DNA of 21,083 nt from a virus (taxonomy: Duplodnaviria; Heunggongvirae; Uroviricota; Caudoviricetes): the IMG/VR virus record IMGVR_UViG_2802429228_000007, positions 1 through 21,083 of that record; one strand, 5' to 3'. The notes beneath the pieces were generated by a model. The model was not told where the DNA came from, made no database searches, and was given only the letters and a program-made list of their open reading frames with translations. A program made the translations under genes and the position numbers. Below, in pieces: positions 17,794-20,011 of the stretch (the stretch's first letter is position 1; each line of letters opens with the position of its first letter).

Positions 17794-18303
17794 TCATACC
17801 AAACCAAATGTTGCGCCGATGCCGGTCATGGTATCAACCACGCTCGACATTGCCGGGTTAGCCTGTAGACGCGCCTGTAACGCCAGCGCCGACAGAGACA
17901 ACATGCGGATGCCTGCATTAACACTCTCAACCATGCTGTGTTTGCGGTCAGAGGTCATACGTTCATTTGATACCGCACCGCTCGCCAGTTCGCCGAGTTC
18001 ACTCATTGCGCGCATCACATAAGACTGCAATTTCTCTTTAGCCAGCTCATTAACCGGCACGCATGGCAGACAATGTATTTGCGCCAGAAAGCCATCAACG
18101 AGGGTTGAGTCTTCGGTCAGGTCAGTCAGCAGCCACAATTCAGGCGGTGTGAATTGGTGAGGCTGTTCTGGGTTGAGCTTGTTACGTAACGTTTGAACGT
18201 TCATACCCGCACGCTCGGCCAGCTTCGCCATGTTGTGACGCTGCGCAAAAGCCCGGCACGCTTCGTCATAGTGAGGATGTTTAGAAATCTGAAAATCAAA
18301 CAT
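17794..18303 (-). CDS. cII: Phage 186 CII-like transcriptional activator (establishment of lysogeny)
   Basis: 169 aa from ATG 18303 (MFDFQISKHPHYDEACRAFAQRHNMAKLAERAGMNVQTLRNKL... with a helix-turn-helix) preceded by an AGAGGGAA Shine-Dalgarno. Position after the apl-like gene matches the 186 early operon. Confidence 0.7.
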   Translation of the reverse strand: MFDFQISKHPHYDEACRAFAQRHNMAKLAERAGMNVQTLRNKLNPEQPHQFTPPELWLLTDLTEDSTLVDGFLAQIHCLPCVPVNELAKEKLQSYVMRAMSELGELASGAVSNERMTSDRKHSMVESVNAGIRMLSLSALALQARLQANPAMSSVVDTMTGIGATFGLV

Positions 18304-18335
18304 GGTTAAATTCCCTCTAACTTGCATAATCAAAT

Positions 18336-18707
18336 TCAGTTAAGAGCGATGCGGTGGTCGATGTAGCGACAATCAATCGCTTGCTGGGTTAGTTTGTCGC
18401 GCCATGCTTTCACGTTTACGAGGGTGCGGCTTCGTTTTCCAGCCTCTTCCTTGTTGGAAAAGTCTTTAGTTGGAGCTTTGAGGAGGATTCCCTCATCAAG
18501 CCATTGCCAGACCAGACGCTCGCTTACACCGCGAGTGGCGGCAAAGTCTTTCACTGTCATTGTGTCTGACATAGCGGAGCGGATCATTGTCTGCAGAGCT
18601 GGCAGCATAGCGGTAACGATGGCATCAAACTGAGCCGGATCTAACAGCACAGTTTGATTTTGTGAGTTTTGCGAATCATGCGTCGAGATTGATTTTGCAT
18701 CTGACAT
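18336..18707 (-). CDS. Apl/Cox-like DNA-binding protein (excision/switch regulator)
   Basis: First gene of the operon divergent from cI. Excisionase-like helix-turn-helix (MTVKDFAATRGVSERLVWQWLDEG). The true start may be an internal Met; the N-terminal 50 aa or so are low complexity. Confidence 0.5.
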   Translation of the reverse strand: MSDAKSISTHDSQNSQNQTVLLDPAQFDAIVTAMLPALQTMIRSAMSDTMTVKDFAATRGVSERLVWQWLDEGILLKAPTKDFSNKEEAGKRSRTLVNVKAWRDKLTQQAIDCRYIDHRIALN

Positions 18708-18827
18708 ATCGCATTATCTCCTGTTGTTTGTAGTGAACTGCATTGATGTGCATCGTGGTTGATAATCATCACTTTAGTTCGCGAAATTTAATTTTGCAAT
18801 GGCAAAAATTAATTTTGGTGGCGATAC
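18708..18827. promoter_or_regulatory. cI / apl intergenic switch region (divergent genes; promoters and operators expected)
   Basis: 120-bp AT-rich spacer between divergently transcribed cI and apl-like genes. Contains the direct repeat TTAATTTTG twice (18788-18796 and 18809-18817, 21 bp apart) flanking an imperfect inverted repeat AATTTTGC-AATG-GCAAAAAT. No confident -35/-10 pair could be assigned by eye. Confidence 0.5.
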
Positions 18828-19664
18828 ATGGCTAAATTTGGAGATGGTGCGGCTCCGGCTATCGAAAGAATCCTTTCGGCTTATGGACTTAGCTCGCAAA
18901 AAGAACTTGGCGAAAAACTTGGTATTTATGCCAACAACATAAGCAGTTGGCTTGCCAGAGATAGCGTTCCGGGCAATGTATTTGTTGAATGTGCTATTGA
19001 AACGGGCGCAGATATCGGATGGTTAGTGACAGGGGAGCTTGCAAAAGCAAACTCTCCACGTGCGACCCTGAAGGGCAAAGAGCTTTATGAAAAGGTCATG
19101 GCTTCAGGTGGTAAACCTGTTCTGAGACGCATCCTTGATGCTTACGGTTTTTCTATGCAAAAGGAGCTGGGTGATTTACTCGGTATATCATCTGGAACAA
19201 TTAGCACATGGGTTCGGCGTGATTTTTTCCCAGGCGATGTAGTTGTTACTTGTGCCCTTGATACTGGTGTTTCGCTGGAATGGTTAGCAACCGGCAAGGG
19301 GCAAATGCGAACTAACAGAGAAATGGTCACATCAAGTTTTTCAATTAAAAAATTTCGCCTTGAAGCGGGTGAGCTTAAGGACGCTGGCGAATGGCATCCA
19401 GACCCCTCGATGATACCCTCTGACTCAGAGGAGTTGATTTTTGTTGAAGGTGTTGGAGCCTCTTGGCTTGTCAACCGTTCTGCTTCGAACATAAGTAATG
19501 GGCGTTGGTTAATTGATATTGACGGCGCTCTTGATGTTTTTGATGTAATTCGTCTTCCCGGCGGAAAAGTCAGGTTGTCAAATAAGTCTGCCGAGTTTGA
19601 ATGCAGCATTACAGATATCACACCAGTAGGTGCTGTAATTTTCACATTGGAAAAACACGTATAA
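18828..19664 (+). CDS. cI: 186-type CI immunity repressor with tandemly duplicated N-terminal DNA-binding domain
   Basis: 278-aa ORF. Two N-terminal repeats of the phage-CI-repressor helix-turn-helix fold (RILSAYGLSSQKELGEKLGIYANNISSWLARDSVPGNVFVECAIETGADIGWLVTGE and RILDAYGFSMQKELGDLLGISSGTISTWVRRDFFPGDVVVTCALDTGVSLEWLATGKG). C-terminal domain (GRWLIDIDGALDVFDVIRLPGGKVRL...FECSITDITPVGAVIF) resembles the 186 CI oligomerisation domain. Confidence 0.75.
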   Translation: MAKFGDGAAPAIERILSAYGLSSQKELGEKLGIYANNISSWLARDSVPGNVFVECAIETGADIGWLVTGELAKANSPRATLKGKELYEKVMASGGKPVLRRILDAYGFSMQKELGDLLGISSGTISTWVRRDFFPGDVVVTCALDTGVSLEWLATGKGQMRTNREMVTSSFSIKKFRLEAGELKDAGEWHPDPSMIPSDSEELIFVEGVGASWLVNRSASNISNGRWLIDIDGALDVFDVIRLPGGKVRLSNKSAEFECSITDITPVGAVIFTLEKHV

Positions 19665-19672
19665 GGGACATT

Positions 19673-20011
19673 ATGAAACGTAAGCTTTTTTTAGCTTTAT
19701 TTCTTTCACTTTCTTTCGGTGCATCAGCCGCTGAAAAAACACAGGATTTAGACGGTGCTAAGTTTGGTGATGATTGGCCGTTAACTTTTGAAAAAGCTAC
19801 GGTGTCTTGTGTTAATGGTAGATATGCCTTTGTGTACGACAAAGCAACAGATGACCGATACCCATTAAATGGGTTTGCTATTGATGGTGTAAAGTCTGGA
19901 AAGCTTGAGGGGAGCGATATTGATACTGTTTGGAAAGATAGCCCGGATTATGAAGGAGTAAAAATTCCTTTGGATCCCGTAATGGATGCTGCGACAGCAC
20001 TTTGCGAATGA
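19673..20011 (+). CDS. Small secreted protein, DUF2511/YebY-like (cargo between cI and int)
   Basis: ATG at 19673 after an AAGGGA Shine-Dalgarno. Sec-type signal peptide (MKRKLFLALFLSLSFGASAAE). Mature protein of about 90 aa with two Cys (ATVSCVNG ... AATALCE) and a YPLNGFAIDG motif that resembles my recollection of E. coli YebY. Confidence 0.5.
   Translation: MKRKLFLALFLSLSFGASAAEKTQDLDGAKFGDDWPLTFEKATVSCVNGRYAFVYDKATDDRYPLNGFAIDGVKSGKLEGSDIDTVWKDSPDYEGVKIPLDPVMDAATALCE

What the first reader, a model, noticed from the sequence alone, without database searches (positions are those of the whole stretch)
18828..19664. CI repressor carries a tandem duplication of its DNA-binding domain
Seen in sequence: two consecutive segments of about 65 aa share the same pattern (RIL.AYG.S.QKELG..LGI....IS.W..RD..PG.V.V.CA..TG....WL.TG), followed by a C-terminal domain that resembles my recollection of the 186 CI C-terminus. 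The underlying DNA copies are diverged, so the duplication looks old rather than an assembly artefact. Inference: a repressor protomer with two helix-turn-helix units could recognise extended or direct-repeat operators, consistent with the TTAATTTTG direct repeats upstream, and would define a distinct immunity specificity.
Basis: partly seen in the sequence, partly recalled or inferred. Interest (0 to 1): 0.55.

Follow-up and report, generated by a model that had tools for sequence, protein, structure and literature searches.

The report
Two-headed 186-type phage CI repressor
This prophage repressor really does carry two copies of its DNA-binding domain, and comparison with about 80 relatives suggests the first, variable copy reads the phage-specific operators at the lytic promoter while the second, almost invariant copy reads a conserved palindrome at three distant control points, a job that phage 186 does with a single domain.

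Summary
ORF 18828-19664 (+, 278 aa) holds two Pfam PF07022 CI helix-turn-helix (HTH) domains, aa 11-70 and 98-161. They are 53% identical as protein and 59% as DNA. A 186-type CI C-terminal domain follows. The window is an E. coli PsP3/186-like (Eganvirus) prophage. PsP3 CI and hundreds of Enterobacterales prophage CIs share this architecture, so it is old, real and common. I found no paper that describes it.

Its "direct repeats" are two imperfect 15-bp palindromes 21 bp apart, over the -35 and spacer of the leftward lytic promoter pR, arranged as at 186 pR.

- HTH1 and these operators form one hypervariable cassette (about 18769-19130).
- HTH2 is the most conserved part of the protein, under strong purifying selection.
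- A Rahnella single-HTH CI has an HTH2-like head and the palindrome AACTTGC-N4-GCAAGTT in its promoter spacer.
- That palindrome recurs here inside cI (19036-19053), at the apl-analogue/cII junction (18319-18336), and upstream of the ogr/pag late activator outside the window. These are the positions of 186 CI sites FL, FR and pB.

Best model, inferred and about 0.6 confident: HTH1 sets immunity at pR, and HTH2 binds the shared distal sites.

The parts
18828..19664 (+). cI gene, 278 aa: HTH1 - linker - HTH2 - linker - 186-type C-terminal domain
18858..19037 (+). HTH1 (aa 11-70), the extra, variable PF07022 domain; recognition helix region IYANNISSWLARD
   Evidence: Pfam E 4.8e-18. AF2 predicts a five-helix bundle, aa 8-68. 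Mean entropy 0.86, against 0.19 for HTH2. Window vs PsP3: 16 synonymous and 27 non-synonymous codon differences.
19036..19053 (.). FL-like site: HTH2-type palindrome AGCTTGCAAAAGCAAACT inside cI. It encodes E-L-A-K-A-N at the start of the disordered inter-domain linker.
   Evidence: Ala codons in the site are GCA in 85/92 cases, against 309/1506 elsewhere in cI. pLDDT is below 50 at aa 72-80. Same position type as 186 FL.
19116..19310 (+). HTH2 (aa 97-161), near-invariant PF07022 domain, positional equivalent of the 186 CI N-terminal domain; recognition helix region ISSGTISTWVRRD
   Evidence: Pfam E 1.5e-29. 2fjr alignment. Entropy 0.19. Window vs PsP3: 24 synonymous and 3 non-synonymous codon differences. 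79% mean identity to the only HTH of the Rahnella single-HTH CIs.
19341..19640 (+). CI C-terminal (oligomerisation) domain, PF16452, aa 172-271
   Evidence: Foldseek to 2fkd gives TM 0.89, rmsd 1.6 A
18803..18817 (-). pR operator O1 (HTH1-type, immunity-specific): CAAAATTAATTTTTG, just upstream of the pR -35
   Evidence: lies in the hypervariable block
18782..18796 (-). pR operator O2 (HTH1-type): CAAAATTAAATTTCG, covering the end of the -35 and the spacer, 21 bp from O1
   Evidence: A spacing of 21-23 bp is the commonest spacing of the best repeat across immunity types (30 of 66 loci).
18771..18799 (-). candidate lytic promoter pR: -35 TTGCAA (18794-18799), 17-bp spacer, -10 TAAAGT (18771-18776), reading toward the apl-analogue
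   Evidence: Read from the sequence. Relatives have TTTACA-17-TA(A/T)AGT at the same place. 8/12 consensus matches, so below the threshold of the scan.
18794..18805 (.). minimal HTH2-type core TTGC-AATG-GCAA overlapping the pR -35 (uncertain)
   Evidence: Only 6 of 34 HTH1 types have such a core at pR.
18319..18336 (.). FR-like site: HTH2-type palindrome AACTTGCATAATCAAATT between the apl-analogue stop and the cII ribosome-binding site
   Evidence: Conserved at this junction in 29 or more loci. Same position as 186 FR.
18689..18717 (+). candidate lysogenic promoter pL: TTGATT-17-CATTAT, facing pR
   Evidence: Read from the sequence. The block 18689-18728 is 100% identical in the window, PsP3, Midge and SW9. 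The layout matches 186 pL. Inference only.
18336..18707 (-). apl/cox analogue (123 aa), first gene of the lytic operon
   Evidence: No Pfam hit. PHROG 3554, plus a weak Cox-like hit at E 1.6e-4.
17794..18303 (-). cII (PF06892)

Best explanation
The gene encodes the immunity repressor of a PsP3/186-like (Eganvirus) prophage. One polypeptide carries two 186-type CI helix-turn-helix domains ahead of a 186-type oligomerisation domain.

Shown:
- Both domains are genuine PF07022 folds.
- The duplication is ancient and widespread.
- HTH1 and the ~55 bp of pR operator DNA next to the cI start form one contiguous hypervariable cassette.
- HTH2 is the most conserved part of the protein and is under strong purifying selection.

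Inferred mechanism:
- HTH1 is the immunity determinant. Pairs of HTH1 from CI dimers bind two type-specific imperfect palindromes, 21 bp apart, over the -35 and spacer of the lytic promoter pR, and so shut off the lytic operon.
- HTH2 reads a family-wide palindrome, AACTTGC-N4-GCAAGTT (core TTGCA-WW-TGCAA). The palindrome lies inside cI (FL-like), at the apl-analogue/cII junction (FR-like, over the establishment-promoter region), and over the -35 of the ogr/pag late-activator promoter (pB-like, outside the window).
- A CI oligomer could therefore loop pR to the flanking sites and repress the late activator. This is what 186 CI does, but here with two separate reading heads, where 186 uses one HTH for two sequence types.

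Likely origin: a tandem duplication of [operator - 5' region - HTH], or a fusion upstream of it. The downstream copy of the operator became the coding sequence of the inter-domain linker.
For: Architecture.

Variable versus constant parts:
- In 120 homologues, HTH2 entropy is 0.19, HTH1 0.86 and the C-terminal domain 0.77.
- Across 70 loci, HTH2-HTH2 identity averages 81% and HTH1-HTH1 59%.
- Window vs PsP3, HTH2 has 24 synonymous and 3 non-synonymous codon changes; HTH1 has 16 and 27.
- DNA identity to PsP3, Midge and SW9 collapses only between about 18769 and 19130. That block is the pR operators plus HTH1 plus the linker.
- Operator sequences differ by HTH1 type and are shared within a type. 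The best repeats are spaced 21-23 bp in 12 distinct types.

Link between HTH2 and the palindrome:
- Rahnella CIs (196 aa) have a single HTH that is 79-92% identical to HTH2. They carry AACTTGCATTTGCGAGTT exactly in the spacer of a TTGACA-17-TAGATT promoter, 110 nt upstream of the HTH anchor, in loci that lack cII and the apl-analogue.
- The double-HTH genes carry the palindrome at the same offset (-99 to -128) upstream of HTH2.
- The 12-nt core occurs 67 times in 455 kb of 80 loci, against 0.4 expected. All 67 lie at three fixed positions.
- Each of four whole (pro)phage genomes has the FL-like, FR-like and ogr/pag-upstream sites plus one terminator hairpin. SW9 has one, and Midge two, additional 3-mismatch hits elsewhere. 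Shuffles of the two genomes tested (E. coli A38, PsP3) expect 0.1 hits at 2 mismatches or fewer.
- Nucleotide-level selection inside cI: Ala codons in the site are GCA in 85/92 cases, against 21% elsewhere; the Leu codon at the site is CTT in 29 of 32 cases. The encoded residues are predicted disordered.
- Suggestive covariation: clades with HTH2 helix ..GTMSAW.. or ..STATIS.. have altered half-sites (TTAA/TTAC; AATTCGA) at both the FL-like and FR-like positions.

Parallel with 186: ATTCAC-N5-GTGAAT sites lie at pB (two), FL and FR but not at pR. The pR sites are two turns apart and FL/FR loop to pR (PMC3675496). One 186 HTH binds two distinct sequence types (Shearwin et al. 2002 JBC, cited in PMC3675496).
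Against: - No binding data exist for any PsP3-type CI. Every assignment of a site to a domain is inferential.
- HTH1 and the pR operators are physically adjacent, so their co-variation could be linkage alone.
- The split is not clean. The window has a minimal TTGC-N4-GCAA core over the pR -35. Kosakonia-type and some Serratia-type loci have HTH2-like palindromes in the pR region (6 of 34 HTH1 types).
- The FR-like site has a degenerate right arm (TCAA-, not GCAA-).
- Within the window alone, two matches at 3 mismatches or fewer are not significant. The case rests on cross-locus conservation.
- The covariation clades are few and not phylogenetically independent.
- The AF2 model says nothing about how the domains are arranged (pTM 0.41).
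- Heptamer-of-dimers assembly of this C-terminal domain is assumed from 27-30% identity to 186.
Confidence: 0.6

Rival explanations
1. The two HTH units of one protomer bind side by side on one extended or direct-repeat operator in the cI/apl intergenic region. Both heads then contribute to a single immunity specificity.
For: Two 16-bp repeats lie 21 bp apart upstream of cI. A minimal HTH2-type core, TTGC-N4-GCAA, lies between them over the -35. Kosakonia-type loci have an HTH2-like palindrome in the pR spacer next to type-specific repeats.
Against: HTH2 is invariant, yet 28 of 34 HTH1 types have no HTH2-type core in the pR region. PsP3, Midge and SW9 share HTH2 but share no operator element upstream of the -10. 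Each repeat is itself palindromic, which fits a symmetric pair of identical heads. A 21-bp spacing is the 186 pattern for adjacent dimers (PMC3675496). HTH2-type sites are conserved elsewhere.
Confidence: 0.15
2. Only one head binds DNA. HTH2 is conserved because it is a protein-protein surface, for example for the TumA antirepressor, for wheel assembly, or for contact with RNA polymerase. The palindromes would then be relics of an ancestral operator or targets of another factor. The mirror version is that HTH1 is a non-DNA-binding regulatory add-on.
For: The extreme conservation of HTH2 would also fit a conserved protein partner. PsP3-type phages carry a split tum (PMC3121763). The identical -110 offset of the palindrome in single- and double-HTH genes is what a relic would also show.
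Against: A relic would not keep 92% GCA at two Ala codons and CTT at the Leu codon across genera, while synonymous sites elsewhere are near saturation. A relic would also not recur at the cII junction and over the ogr/pag -35 in 4 of 4 genomes. In Rahnella, the HTH2-like domain is the only HTH and its palindrome sits in a promoter spacer. HTH1 keeps a full PF07022 signature, and its variability is concentrated in the recognition helix.
Confidence: 0.15
3. The conserved palindromes are sites for CII, for the Apl/Cox analogue or for a host factor, not for CI.
For: The FR-like site lies next to the cII start, where 186 has CII-dependent pE. The apl-analogue is conserved among these phages.
Against: The palindrome is present in Rahnella loci that have the HTH2-like CI but no cII and no apl-analogue. 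186 CII sites are different and lie inside cII. The three locations match the 186 CI sites, not Apl or CII sites. Half-site changes track HTH2 helix variants.
Confidence: 0.05

Closest known systems
Coliphage 186 CI repressor and its pR / FL / FR / pB operator system (PDB 2fjr, 2fkd)
   Same: - Same HTH family (PF07022) and same C-terminal domain (PF16452; TM 0.89 to 2fkd).
- Same gene order: int-cI facing apl-cII-fil.
- pR and pL face each other.
- The pR operators are two helical turns apart.
- Single palindromic sites lie inside cI, at the apl/cII junction and at the late-activator promoter.
- A tum-type SOS antirepressor is encoded elsewhere in the prophage.
   Different: - 186 CI has one HTH, and that one HTH binds two distinct sequence types. 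This protein has two HTH domains, 46% identical on average, one hypervariable and one invariant.
- The site sequences are unrelated to the 186 sites (AACTTGC-N4-GCAAGTT against ATTCAC-N5-GTGAAT).
- Two clear pR operators here, three in 186.
- The FL-like site encodes the inter-domain linker.
- The Apl analogue is an unrelated 123-aa protein.
Salmonella phage PsP3 CI (AAN08403, 286 aa) and the CIs of SEN1, Midge, SW9, vB_EcoM-613R3 and RCIP0057
   Same: Same double-HTH architecture, 64-78% identical overall. HTH2 and the C-terminal domain are nearly identical. The FL-like, FR-like and pag-upstream palindromes are the same.
   Different: HTH1 recognition helices and pR operators differ, so the immunity type is presumably different. 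The window type (IYANNISSWLARD) is shared with Enterobacter, Klebsiella and Citrobacter prophages. In the literature PsP3 CI was described only as having 'a longer C-terminal domain' (PMC3448106).
Rahnella single-HTH CI homologues (196 aa; L082-L089)
   Same: Their only HTH is 79-92% identical to HTH2. The same palindrome lies 110 nt upstream of the HTH anchor.
   Different: They have no HTH1. The palindrome is non-coding and sits in a promoter spacer. The C-terminal domain is only about 40-50% identical. The loci lack int, cII and the apl-analogue and lie next to aroF-tyrA.
Phage P2 C repressor
   Same: It is the immunity repressor of a related P2-like phage and binds two repeats near the early promoter.
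   Different: It is an unrelated small protein that binds true direct repeats (PMC2995052). It has no PF07022 or PF16452 domain.

Membership tests
186-type CI repressor (PF07022 + PF16452) | N-terminal Phage_CI_repr helix-turn-helix domain | tested here: met
   Present twice: E 4.8e-18 (aa 11-70) and E 1.5e-29 (aa 98-161). AF2 predicts two five-helix bundles.
186-type CI repressor (PF07022 + PF16452) | C-terminal Phage_CI_C beta domain | tested here: met
   PF16452 E 8.7e-21. phmmer to 2fjr E 1.8e-25. Foldseek to 2fkd TM 0.89.
186-type CI repressor (PF07022 + PF16452) | Canonical architecture of one HTH plus one C-terminal domain (about 190 aa) | tested here: not met
   278 aa with an extra N-terminal HTH. 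186 CI aligns only to aa 97-271. Single-HTH representatives all align to query positions 92-275.
186-type CI repressor (PF07022 + PF16452) | Assembly into dimers and a 14-mer wheel | not testable with these tools
   Only a monomer model was made. The C-terminal fold is conserved, but oligomerisation was not modelled.
186-type genetic switch | cI-int operon facing an apl-cII-fil lytic operon, with face-to-face promoters | tested here: met
   The gene order is annotated in identical and related records. The pR and pL hexamers were read from the sequence only; the consensus scan did not reach its threshold.
186-type genetic switch | Repressor sites at pR two turns apart, plus distal sites in cI (FL), at apl/cII (FR) and at the late-activator promoter (pB) | tested here: inconclusive
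   Sequence elements occupy all these positions, but binding was not tested. They fall into two unrelated sequence classes.
PsP3-type double-HTH CI (informal group) | HTH1 - linker - invariant HTH2 (..ISSGTISTWVRRD..) - C-terminal domain, about 270-290 aa | tested here: met
   Alignments; 78% identity to PsP3 CI.
LexA/lambda-CI type self-cleaving repressor | Ser-Lys peptidase S24 catalytic C-terminal domain | tested here: not met
   No Peptidase_S24 hit in Pfam. LexA and lambda chains appear only as distant fold neighbours of the C-terminal domain. Induction in this group is expected to go through a Tum antirepressor (PMC3121763).

The most novel reading that the evidence does not exclude
The PsP3-type CI is a natural bispecific repressor, and its two heads separate 'private' from 'public' DNA recognition. 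HTH1 and its operators form a swappable immunity cassette of about 360 bp. HTH2 and its FL-, FR- and pB-like palindromes are common to all heteroimmune relatives.

Three consequences would follow:
- One CI dimer or wheel can bridge pR and the distal sites without the two site classes competing for the same head.
- A resident prophage's CI should bind the distal and late-activator sites of a superinfecting heteroimmune relative. That would give partial cross-repression of late genes and of pE between phages that are formally heteroimmune.
- The inter-domain linker is an exonised operator that still works as DNA while it is translated as a disordered peptide.
Probability: 0.3. Interest if true: 0.75.

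Novelty: new variant of a known kind. Interest (0 to 1): 0.6.

Why it matters
Phage 186 is one of the best-understood alternatives to the lambda switch. An odd feature of it is that one helix-turn-helix reads two unrelated operator classes: pR on one hand, and FL, FR and pB on the other. The PsP3-type repressors, common in E. coli, Klebsiella, Enterobacter, Salmonella, Serratia and plant-pathogenic Enterobacterales, appear to have solved the same problem with two heads.

If that is confirmed, three things follow:
- It would be a clean natural experiment for dissecting short-range repression from long-range looping.
- It would explain how new immunity types arise: a ~360-bp operator-plus-HTH1 cassette is exchanged while the long-range architecture is kept.
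- It predicts regulatory cross-talk between heteroimmune prophages in polylysogens.

It would also give a documented case of an operator retained as functional DNA inside a coding linker. The architecture itself is ordinary in databases. Only the functional reading is new, and it is untested.

Tried and rejected
- **Assembly artefact or recent duplication: rejected.** The copies are 59% identical as DNA, and the architecture occurs in 70 or more species.
- **HTH2 conserved only through recent recombination: rejected.** Synonymous differences are 23-36 per 60 codons, with 2-17 non-synonymous.
- **TTRATTTTG motifs at 18654 and 18689 as further operators: dropped.** They lie in DNA conserved across immunity types. 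The second one overlaps the candidate pL -35.
- **D1 repeat TAATTTTGCAATGGCAAAAA / TAATTTTCACATTGGAAAAA (19636-19655) as a flanking operator: dropped.** It is not recovered as an HTH1-type site at 3 mismatches or fewer and is not conserved.
- **Consensus promoter/terminator scan of 18300-19000:** found nothing. The promoters given here are hand-read, with 8/12 consensus matches.
- **The search for homologous proteins with HTH1 alone:** returned only 3 fragments and was uninformative about single-HTH relatives with an HTH1-like head.
- **Translation of the RefSeq TumA-like CDS from converted window coordinates:** failed and was not pursued.
- **Literature searches for a description of a double-HTH PsP3-type CI:** found none. 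Subscription-only papers, such as the PsP3 genome work and Dodd & Egan 1996, could not be searched.
- **RNA-hairpin reading of the FL-like palindrome:** considered unlikely, because the conserved core would leave only a 2-nt loop.
- **Internal start at M91 giving a 186-like short form:** this Met is not conserved.
Full report
**1. What is there**

The window is a P2/186-like (Eganvirus, PsP3-like) prophage. It is 100% identical to a prophage of E. coli A38 that lies next to yfiB-dgcN. ORF 18828-19664 (+) encodes a 278-aa protein that RefSeq calls phage repressor protein CI.

Its neighbours, in order:
- Downstream: a DUF2511 gene and then the integrase.
- Upstream, on the opposite strand: a 123-aa apl/cox analogue (18336-18707), then cII (17794-18303), then fil.

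This is the gene order of the 186 switch.

**2.

- Pfam finds the CI helix-turn-helix (HTH) domain PF07022 twice and the CI C-terminal domain PF16452 once.
- Scanned separately, aa 11-70 score 65.7 bits (E 4.8e-18) and aa 98-161 score 102.5 bits (E 1.5e-29).
- The two halves align without gaps at 53% identity, E 7e-26.
- At the DNA level they are 59% identical, third codon positions are 42% identical, and only 14 of 32 conserved residues use the same codon. The duplication is old.
- 186 CI (PDB 2fjr) aligns to aa 97-271 only. The second HTH plus the C-terminal domain therefore equal a whole 186 CI, and the first ~90 residues are extra.
- An AlphaFold2 model (mean pLDDT 78) shows two five-helix bundles (aa 8-68 and 95-155). 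They are separated by a disordered stretch (aa 72-80, pLDDT below 50) and a short helix (aa 84-93). A second disordered linker and a beta domain follow.
- Foldseek puts 186 CI first. The C-terminal domain superposes on 2fkd with TM 0.89 and rmsd 1.6 A.

**3. It is common, and apparently undescribed**

- PsP3 CI (286 aa, 78% identical) and the CIs of SEN1, Midge, SW9, vB_EcoM-613R3 and RCIP0057 have the same layout.
- All of the best 120 database homologues are 267-287 aa long. One Klebsiella cluster alone stands for 737 contigs.
- A scan of one genome per species returned double-HTH loci from Enterobacter, Citrobacter, Kosakonia, Serratia, Pectobacterium, Dickeya, Brenneria, Lonsdalea, Rahnella, Buttiauxella, Pantoea, Erwinia and others.
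- Among clusters at 50% identity, roughly ten are double-HTH. The many single-HTH relatives (187-215 aa) all align to query positions 92-275.
- Five full-text searches found no description of the duplication. The one comparative paper that discusses PsP3 CI says it has "a longer C-terminal domain" (PMC3448106).

**4. The two heads evolve in opposite ways**

- In 120 homologues the mean column entropy is 0.19 for HTH2, 0.86 for HTH1 and 0.77 for the C-terminal domain.
- Across 70 loci, HTH2 copies are on average 81% identical and HTH1 copies 59% (minimum 32%). HTH1 versus HTH2 is 46%. The 186 head is 41% identical to HTH2 and 35% to HTH1.
- The variability of HTH1 is concentrated in and around the recognition helix: window IYANNISSWLARD, PsP3 IAKHSVSGWVQRD, Midge VPSNSVSTWVQRN, SW9 IHANNVSSWLARN. 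HTH2 reads ISSGTISTWVRRD almost everywhere.
- The conservation of HTH2 is not recent gene flow. Window versus PsP3, HTH2 has 24 synonymous and 3 non-synonymous codon differences, and HTH1 has 16 and 27. The same pattern holds for twelve other comparisons.

**5. The operators at the lytic promoter**

The 120-bp cI/apl-analogue spacer has two halves.

The half next to the apl-analogue is conserved among heteroimmune relatives. The block 18689-18728 is 100% identical in the window, PsP3, Midge and SW9.

The ~55 bp next to cI are unrelated between HTH1 types. Read on the minus strand, every type shows a good sigma-70 promoter pointing at the apl-analogue. In the window this is -35 TTGCAA (18794-18799), a 17-bp spacer and -10 TAAAGT (18771-18776). 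Most relatives have TTTACA-17-TA(A/T)AGT. This is inferred from the sequence; the consensus scan's threshold was not reached.

- O1, CAAAATTAATTTTTG, at 18803-18817.
- O2, CAAAATTAAATTTCG, at 18782-18796.

They lie 21 bp apart. O1 is just upstream of the -35, and O2 spans the -35 and the spacer. Nothing else in the 21-kb window matches them.

Other immunity types have their own repeats in the same places. A spacing of 21-23 bp is by far the commonest (30 of 66 non-redundant loci, 12 distinct HTH1 types). 186 CI also binds adjacent pR operators two turns apart (PMC3675496).

DNA identity between the window and PsP3, Midge and SW9 drops only between about 18769 and 19130. That block is the operators plus HTH1 plus the linker, a contiguous immunity cassette. 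Identity recovers exactly where HTH2 begins.

**6. What HTH2 may read**

The clue came from eight Rahnella loci. Their CI is 196 aa with a single HTH that is 79-92% identical to HTH2. There, the palindrome AACTTGCATTTGCGAGTT fills the spacer of a TTGACA-17-TAGATT promoter that diverges from cI. It lies 110 nt upstream of the AYGF anchor of the HTH. These loci have neither cII nor the apl-analogue.

Scan of all loci for AACTTGC-N4-GCAAGTT:
- Hits with 3 or fewer mismatches form two main clusters among scattered others: 40 lie 100-150 nt upstream of the HTH2 anchor, and 29 lie at the apl-analogue/cII junction.
- The stricter 12-nt core T[TC]GCA-WW-TGC[AG]A occurs 67 times in 455 kb, against 0.4 expected. 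All 67 occurrences lie at three fixed offsets.

In the window the sites are:
- 19036-19053, AGCTTGCAAAAGCAAACT, inside cI.
- 18319-18336, AACTTGCATAATCAAATT, between the apl-analogue stop codon and the cII ribosome-binding site.

Whole-genome scans covered the A38 prophage, PsP3, SW9 and Midge:
- Each gives those two sites, plus a third site over the -35 of the ogr/pag late-activator promoter.
- Each also gives the terminator hairpin after that gene.
- SW9 has one more weak 3-mismatch hit elsewhere, and Midge two.
- Shuffles of A38 and PsP3 expect 0.1 hits at 2 mismatches or fewer.

These are the places where 186 CI has its non-pR sites: FL inside cI, FR at the apl/cII junction, and pB. In 186 those sites (ATTCAC-N5-GTGAAT) also differ in sequence from the pR operators. 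The 186 literature reports that one HTH binds both classes (Shearwin, Dodd & Egan 2002, as cited in PMC3675496).

**7. The intragenic site is selected as DNA**

The site encodes E-L-A-K/N-A-N at the start of the disordered linker. Across 67 non-redundant genes:
- The two Ala codons in the site are GCA in 85 of 92 cases, against 309 of 1506 (21%) elsewhere in cI.
- The Leu codon at the site is CTT in 29 of 32 cases, against 19% elsewhere.
- In clades where the peptide differs (for example ENSHLQ), a palindrome is still present a few bases away.

These counts are not phylogenetically independent, but synonymous sites elsewhere are close to saturated.

Covariation is suggestive, not proven:
- Four loci with HTH2 helix ..GTMSAW.. 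have TTAA/TTAC...GTAA/TTAA in place of TTGC...GCAA at both the FL-like and FR-like positions.
- A Pectobacterium/Brenneria clade with ..STATIS.. has AATTCGA-type arms at both positions.
- Dickeya (..APGTIS..) keeps the TTGCA-TT-TGCAA core. The Lonsdalea loci, with the same helix, show no such palindrome.

**8. Model and caveats**

My best reading:
- HTH1 sets immunity by binding O1/O2 at pR.
- HTH2 binds the shared palindromes. It thereby supplies the long-range functions (the FL-like site is about 245 bp from pR and the FR-like site about 470 bp) and the late-activator repression, which 186 CI performs with its single head.

Only the domain architecture, the conservation patterns and the site distributions are shown. 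All binding assignments are inferred.

The split is not absolute:
- The window has a minimal TTGC-AATG-GCAA core over the pR -35 (18794-18805).
- Kosakonia-type loci have TCGCAAATGCGA in the pR spacer.
- In Serratia-type loci an HTH2-like palindrome overlaps the pR -35.

In all, 6 of 34 HTH1 types have an HTH2-type core at pR, and 28 do not.

Linkage alone could explain the co-variation of HTH1 with the operators. The stronger argument is by elimination: an invariant HTH2 cannot read operators that differ completely between PsP3, Midge, SW9 and the window.

**9. Origin**

The palindrome lies at the same distance upstream of the HTH in the single-HTH Rahnella genes, where it is non-coding, and upstream of HTH2 in the double-HTH genes, where it is coding (-110 in most, -104 in the window). 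HTH1 and HTH2 are closer to each other than either is to the 186 head.

The simplest history is a tandem duplication of [operator - 5' region - HTH], or a fusion upstream of that unit. The downstream operator and leader would then have been read through as the linker, and the upstream copy diverged together with its operators. The reverse direction, with the Rahnella forms as truncations, is not excluded.

**10. Verdict**

This protein is a member of the PsP3-type subgroup of 186-like CI repressors, so the protein itself is not new. The proposed division of labour between a private head and a public head, and the operator embedded in the linker-coding sequence, are to my knowledge undescribed and directly testable.

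Noticed in passing
window 18336-18707 (-): The first lytic-operon gene, in the position of apl/cox, encodes a 123-aa protein. It has no Pfam domain, belongs to PHROG 3554 (function unknown) and has only a weak Cox-like excisionase hit (E 1.6e-4). The literature calls its PsP3 counterpart gp30 a singleton.
   Followed up: partly
window ~18735-18760 (pR leader, minus strand GATGCACATCAATGCAG): A conserved pair of ATGCA(C) motifs about 10 bp apart lies in the pR 5' leader of many immunity types (for example AAATGCACGCCAATGCAC in Pantoea-type loci). They may be binding sites for the apl-analogue, by analogy with the Apl repeats between 186 pR and pL.
   Followed up: no
window 18689-18717 (+): Candidate lysogenic promoter pL: TTGATT-17-CATTAT, straddling the apl-analogue start codon and facing pR. 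The transcripts would overlap by about 40 bp. It lies in a 40-bp block that is 100% identical in the window, PsP3, Midge and SW9.
   Followed up: partly
window 19673-20011 (+): A DUF2511 / YebY-like gene with a signal-peptide-like N-terminus lies between cI and int in the lysogenic operon. It is conserved in PsP3 (gp28), Midge and SW9 and is probably a lysogenic-conversion 'moron'.
   Followed up: no
L090 5795-5812; PsP3 L091 21558-21575; SW9 L092 21516; Midge L093 20733: The intrinsic terminator hairpin after the ogr/pag gene has the form AACCTGC-N4-GCAGGTT in 4 of 4 genomes. That is the HTH2 palindrome with a symmetric T-to-C change. This may be coincidence, or a weak CI site.
   Followed up: no
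L082-L089 (Rahnella spp.): A single-HTH CI with an HTH2-like head lies directly upstream of the host aroF-tyrA genes. It has a divergent 91-aa ORF and a TraR/DksA-like gene, but no integrase, cII or apl-analogue. It may be a cryptic remnant or a domesticated repressor conserved across several Rahnella species.
   Followed up: partly
proteins P0186 (327 aa), P0198 (358 aa), P0236 (525 aa), P0220 (1170 aa): These cluster representatives match the query in 3 to 6 separate stretches. Proteins with three or more CI-type HTH units may therefore exist.
   Followed up: no
L054, L057, L062 (Lonsdalea), about 380 nt upstream of cI: A perfect LexA-box-like palindrome, ACTGTATTTATATACAGT, lies in the early region. 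It suggests direct SOS control of an early gene in that lineage.
   Followed up: no
window 19098 (codon M91): An in-frame ATG preceded by AAGG could start a 188-aa form with HTH2 and the C-terminal domain, equivalent to a 186-size CI. The Met is replaced by Leu in Midge- and Kosakonia-type proteins, so this is not a conserved feature.
   Followed up: partly
PMC3448106 (Nilsson et al. 2011), Discussion: The published alignment-based statement that PsP3 CI has 'a longer C-terminal domain' than 186 CI appears to be a mis-alignment. The extra length is an N-terminal second HTH.
   Followed up: yes
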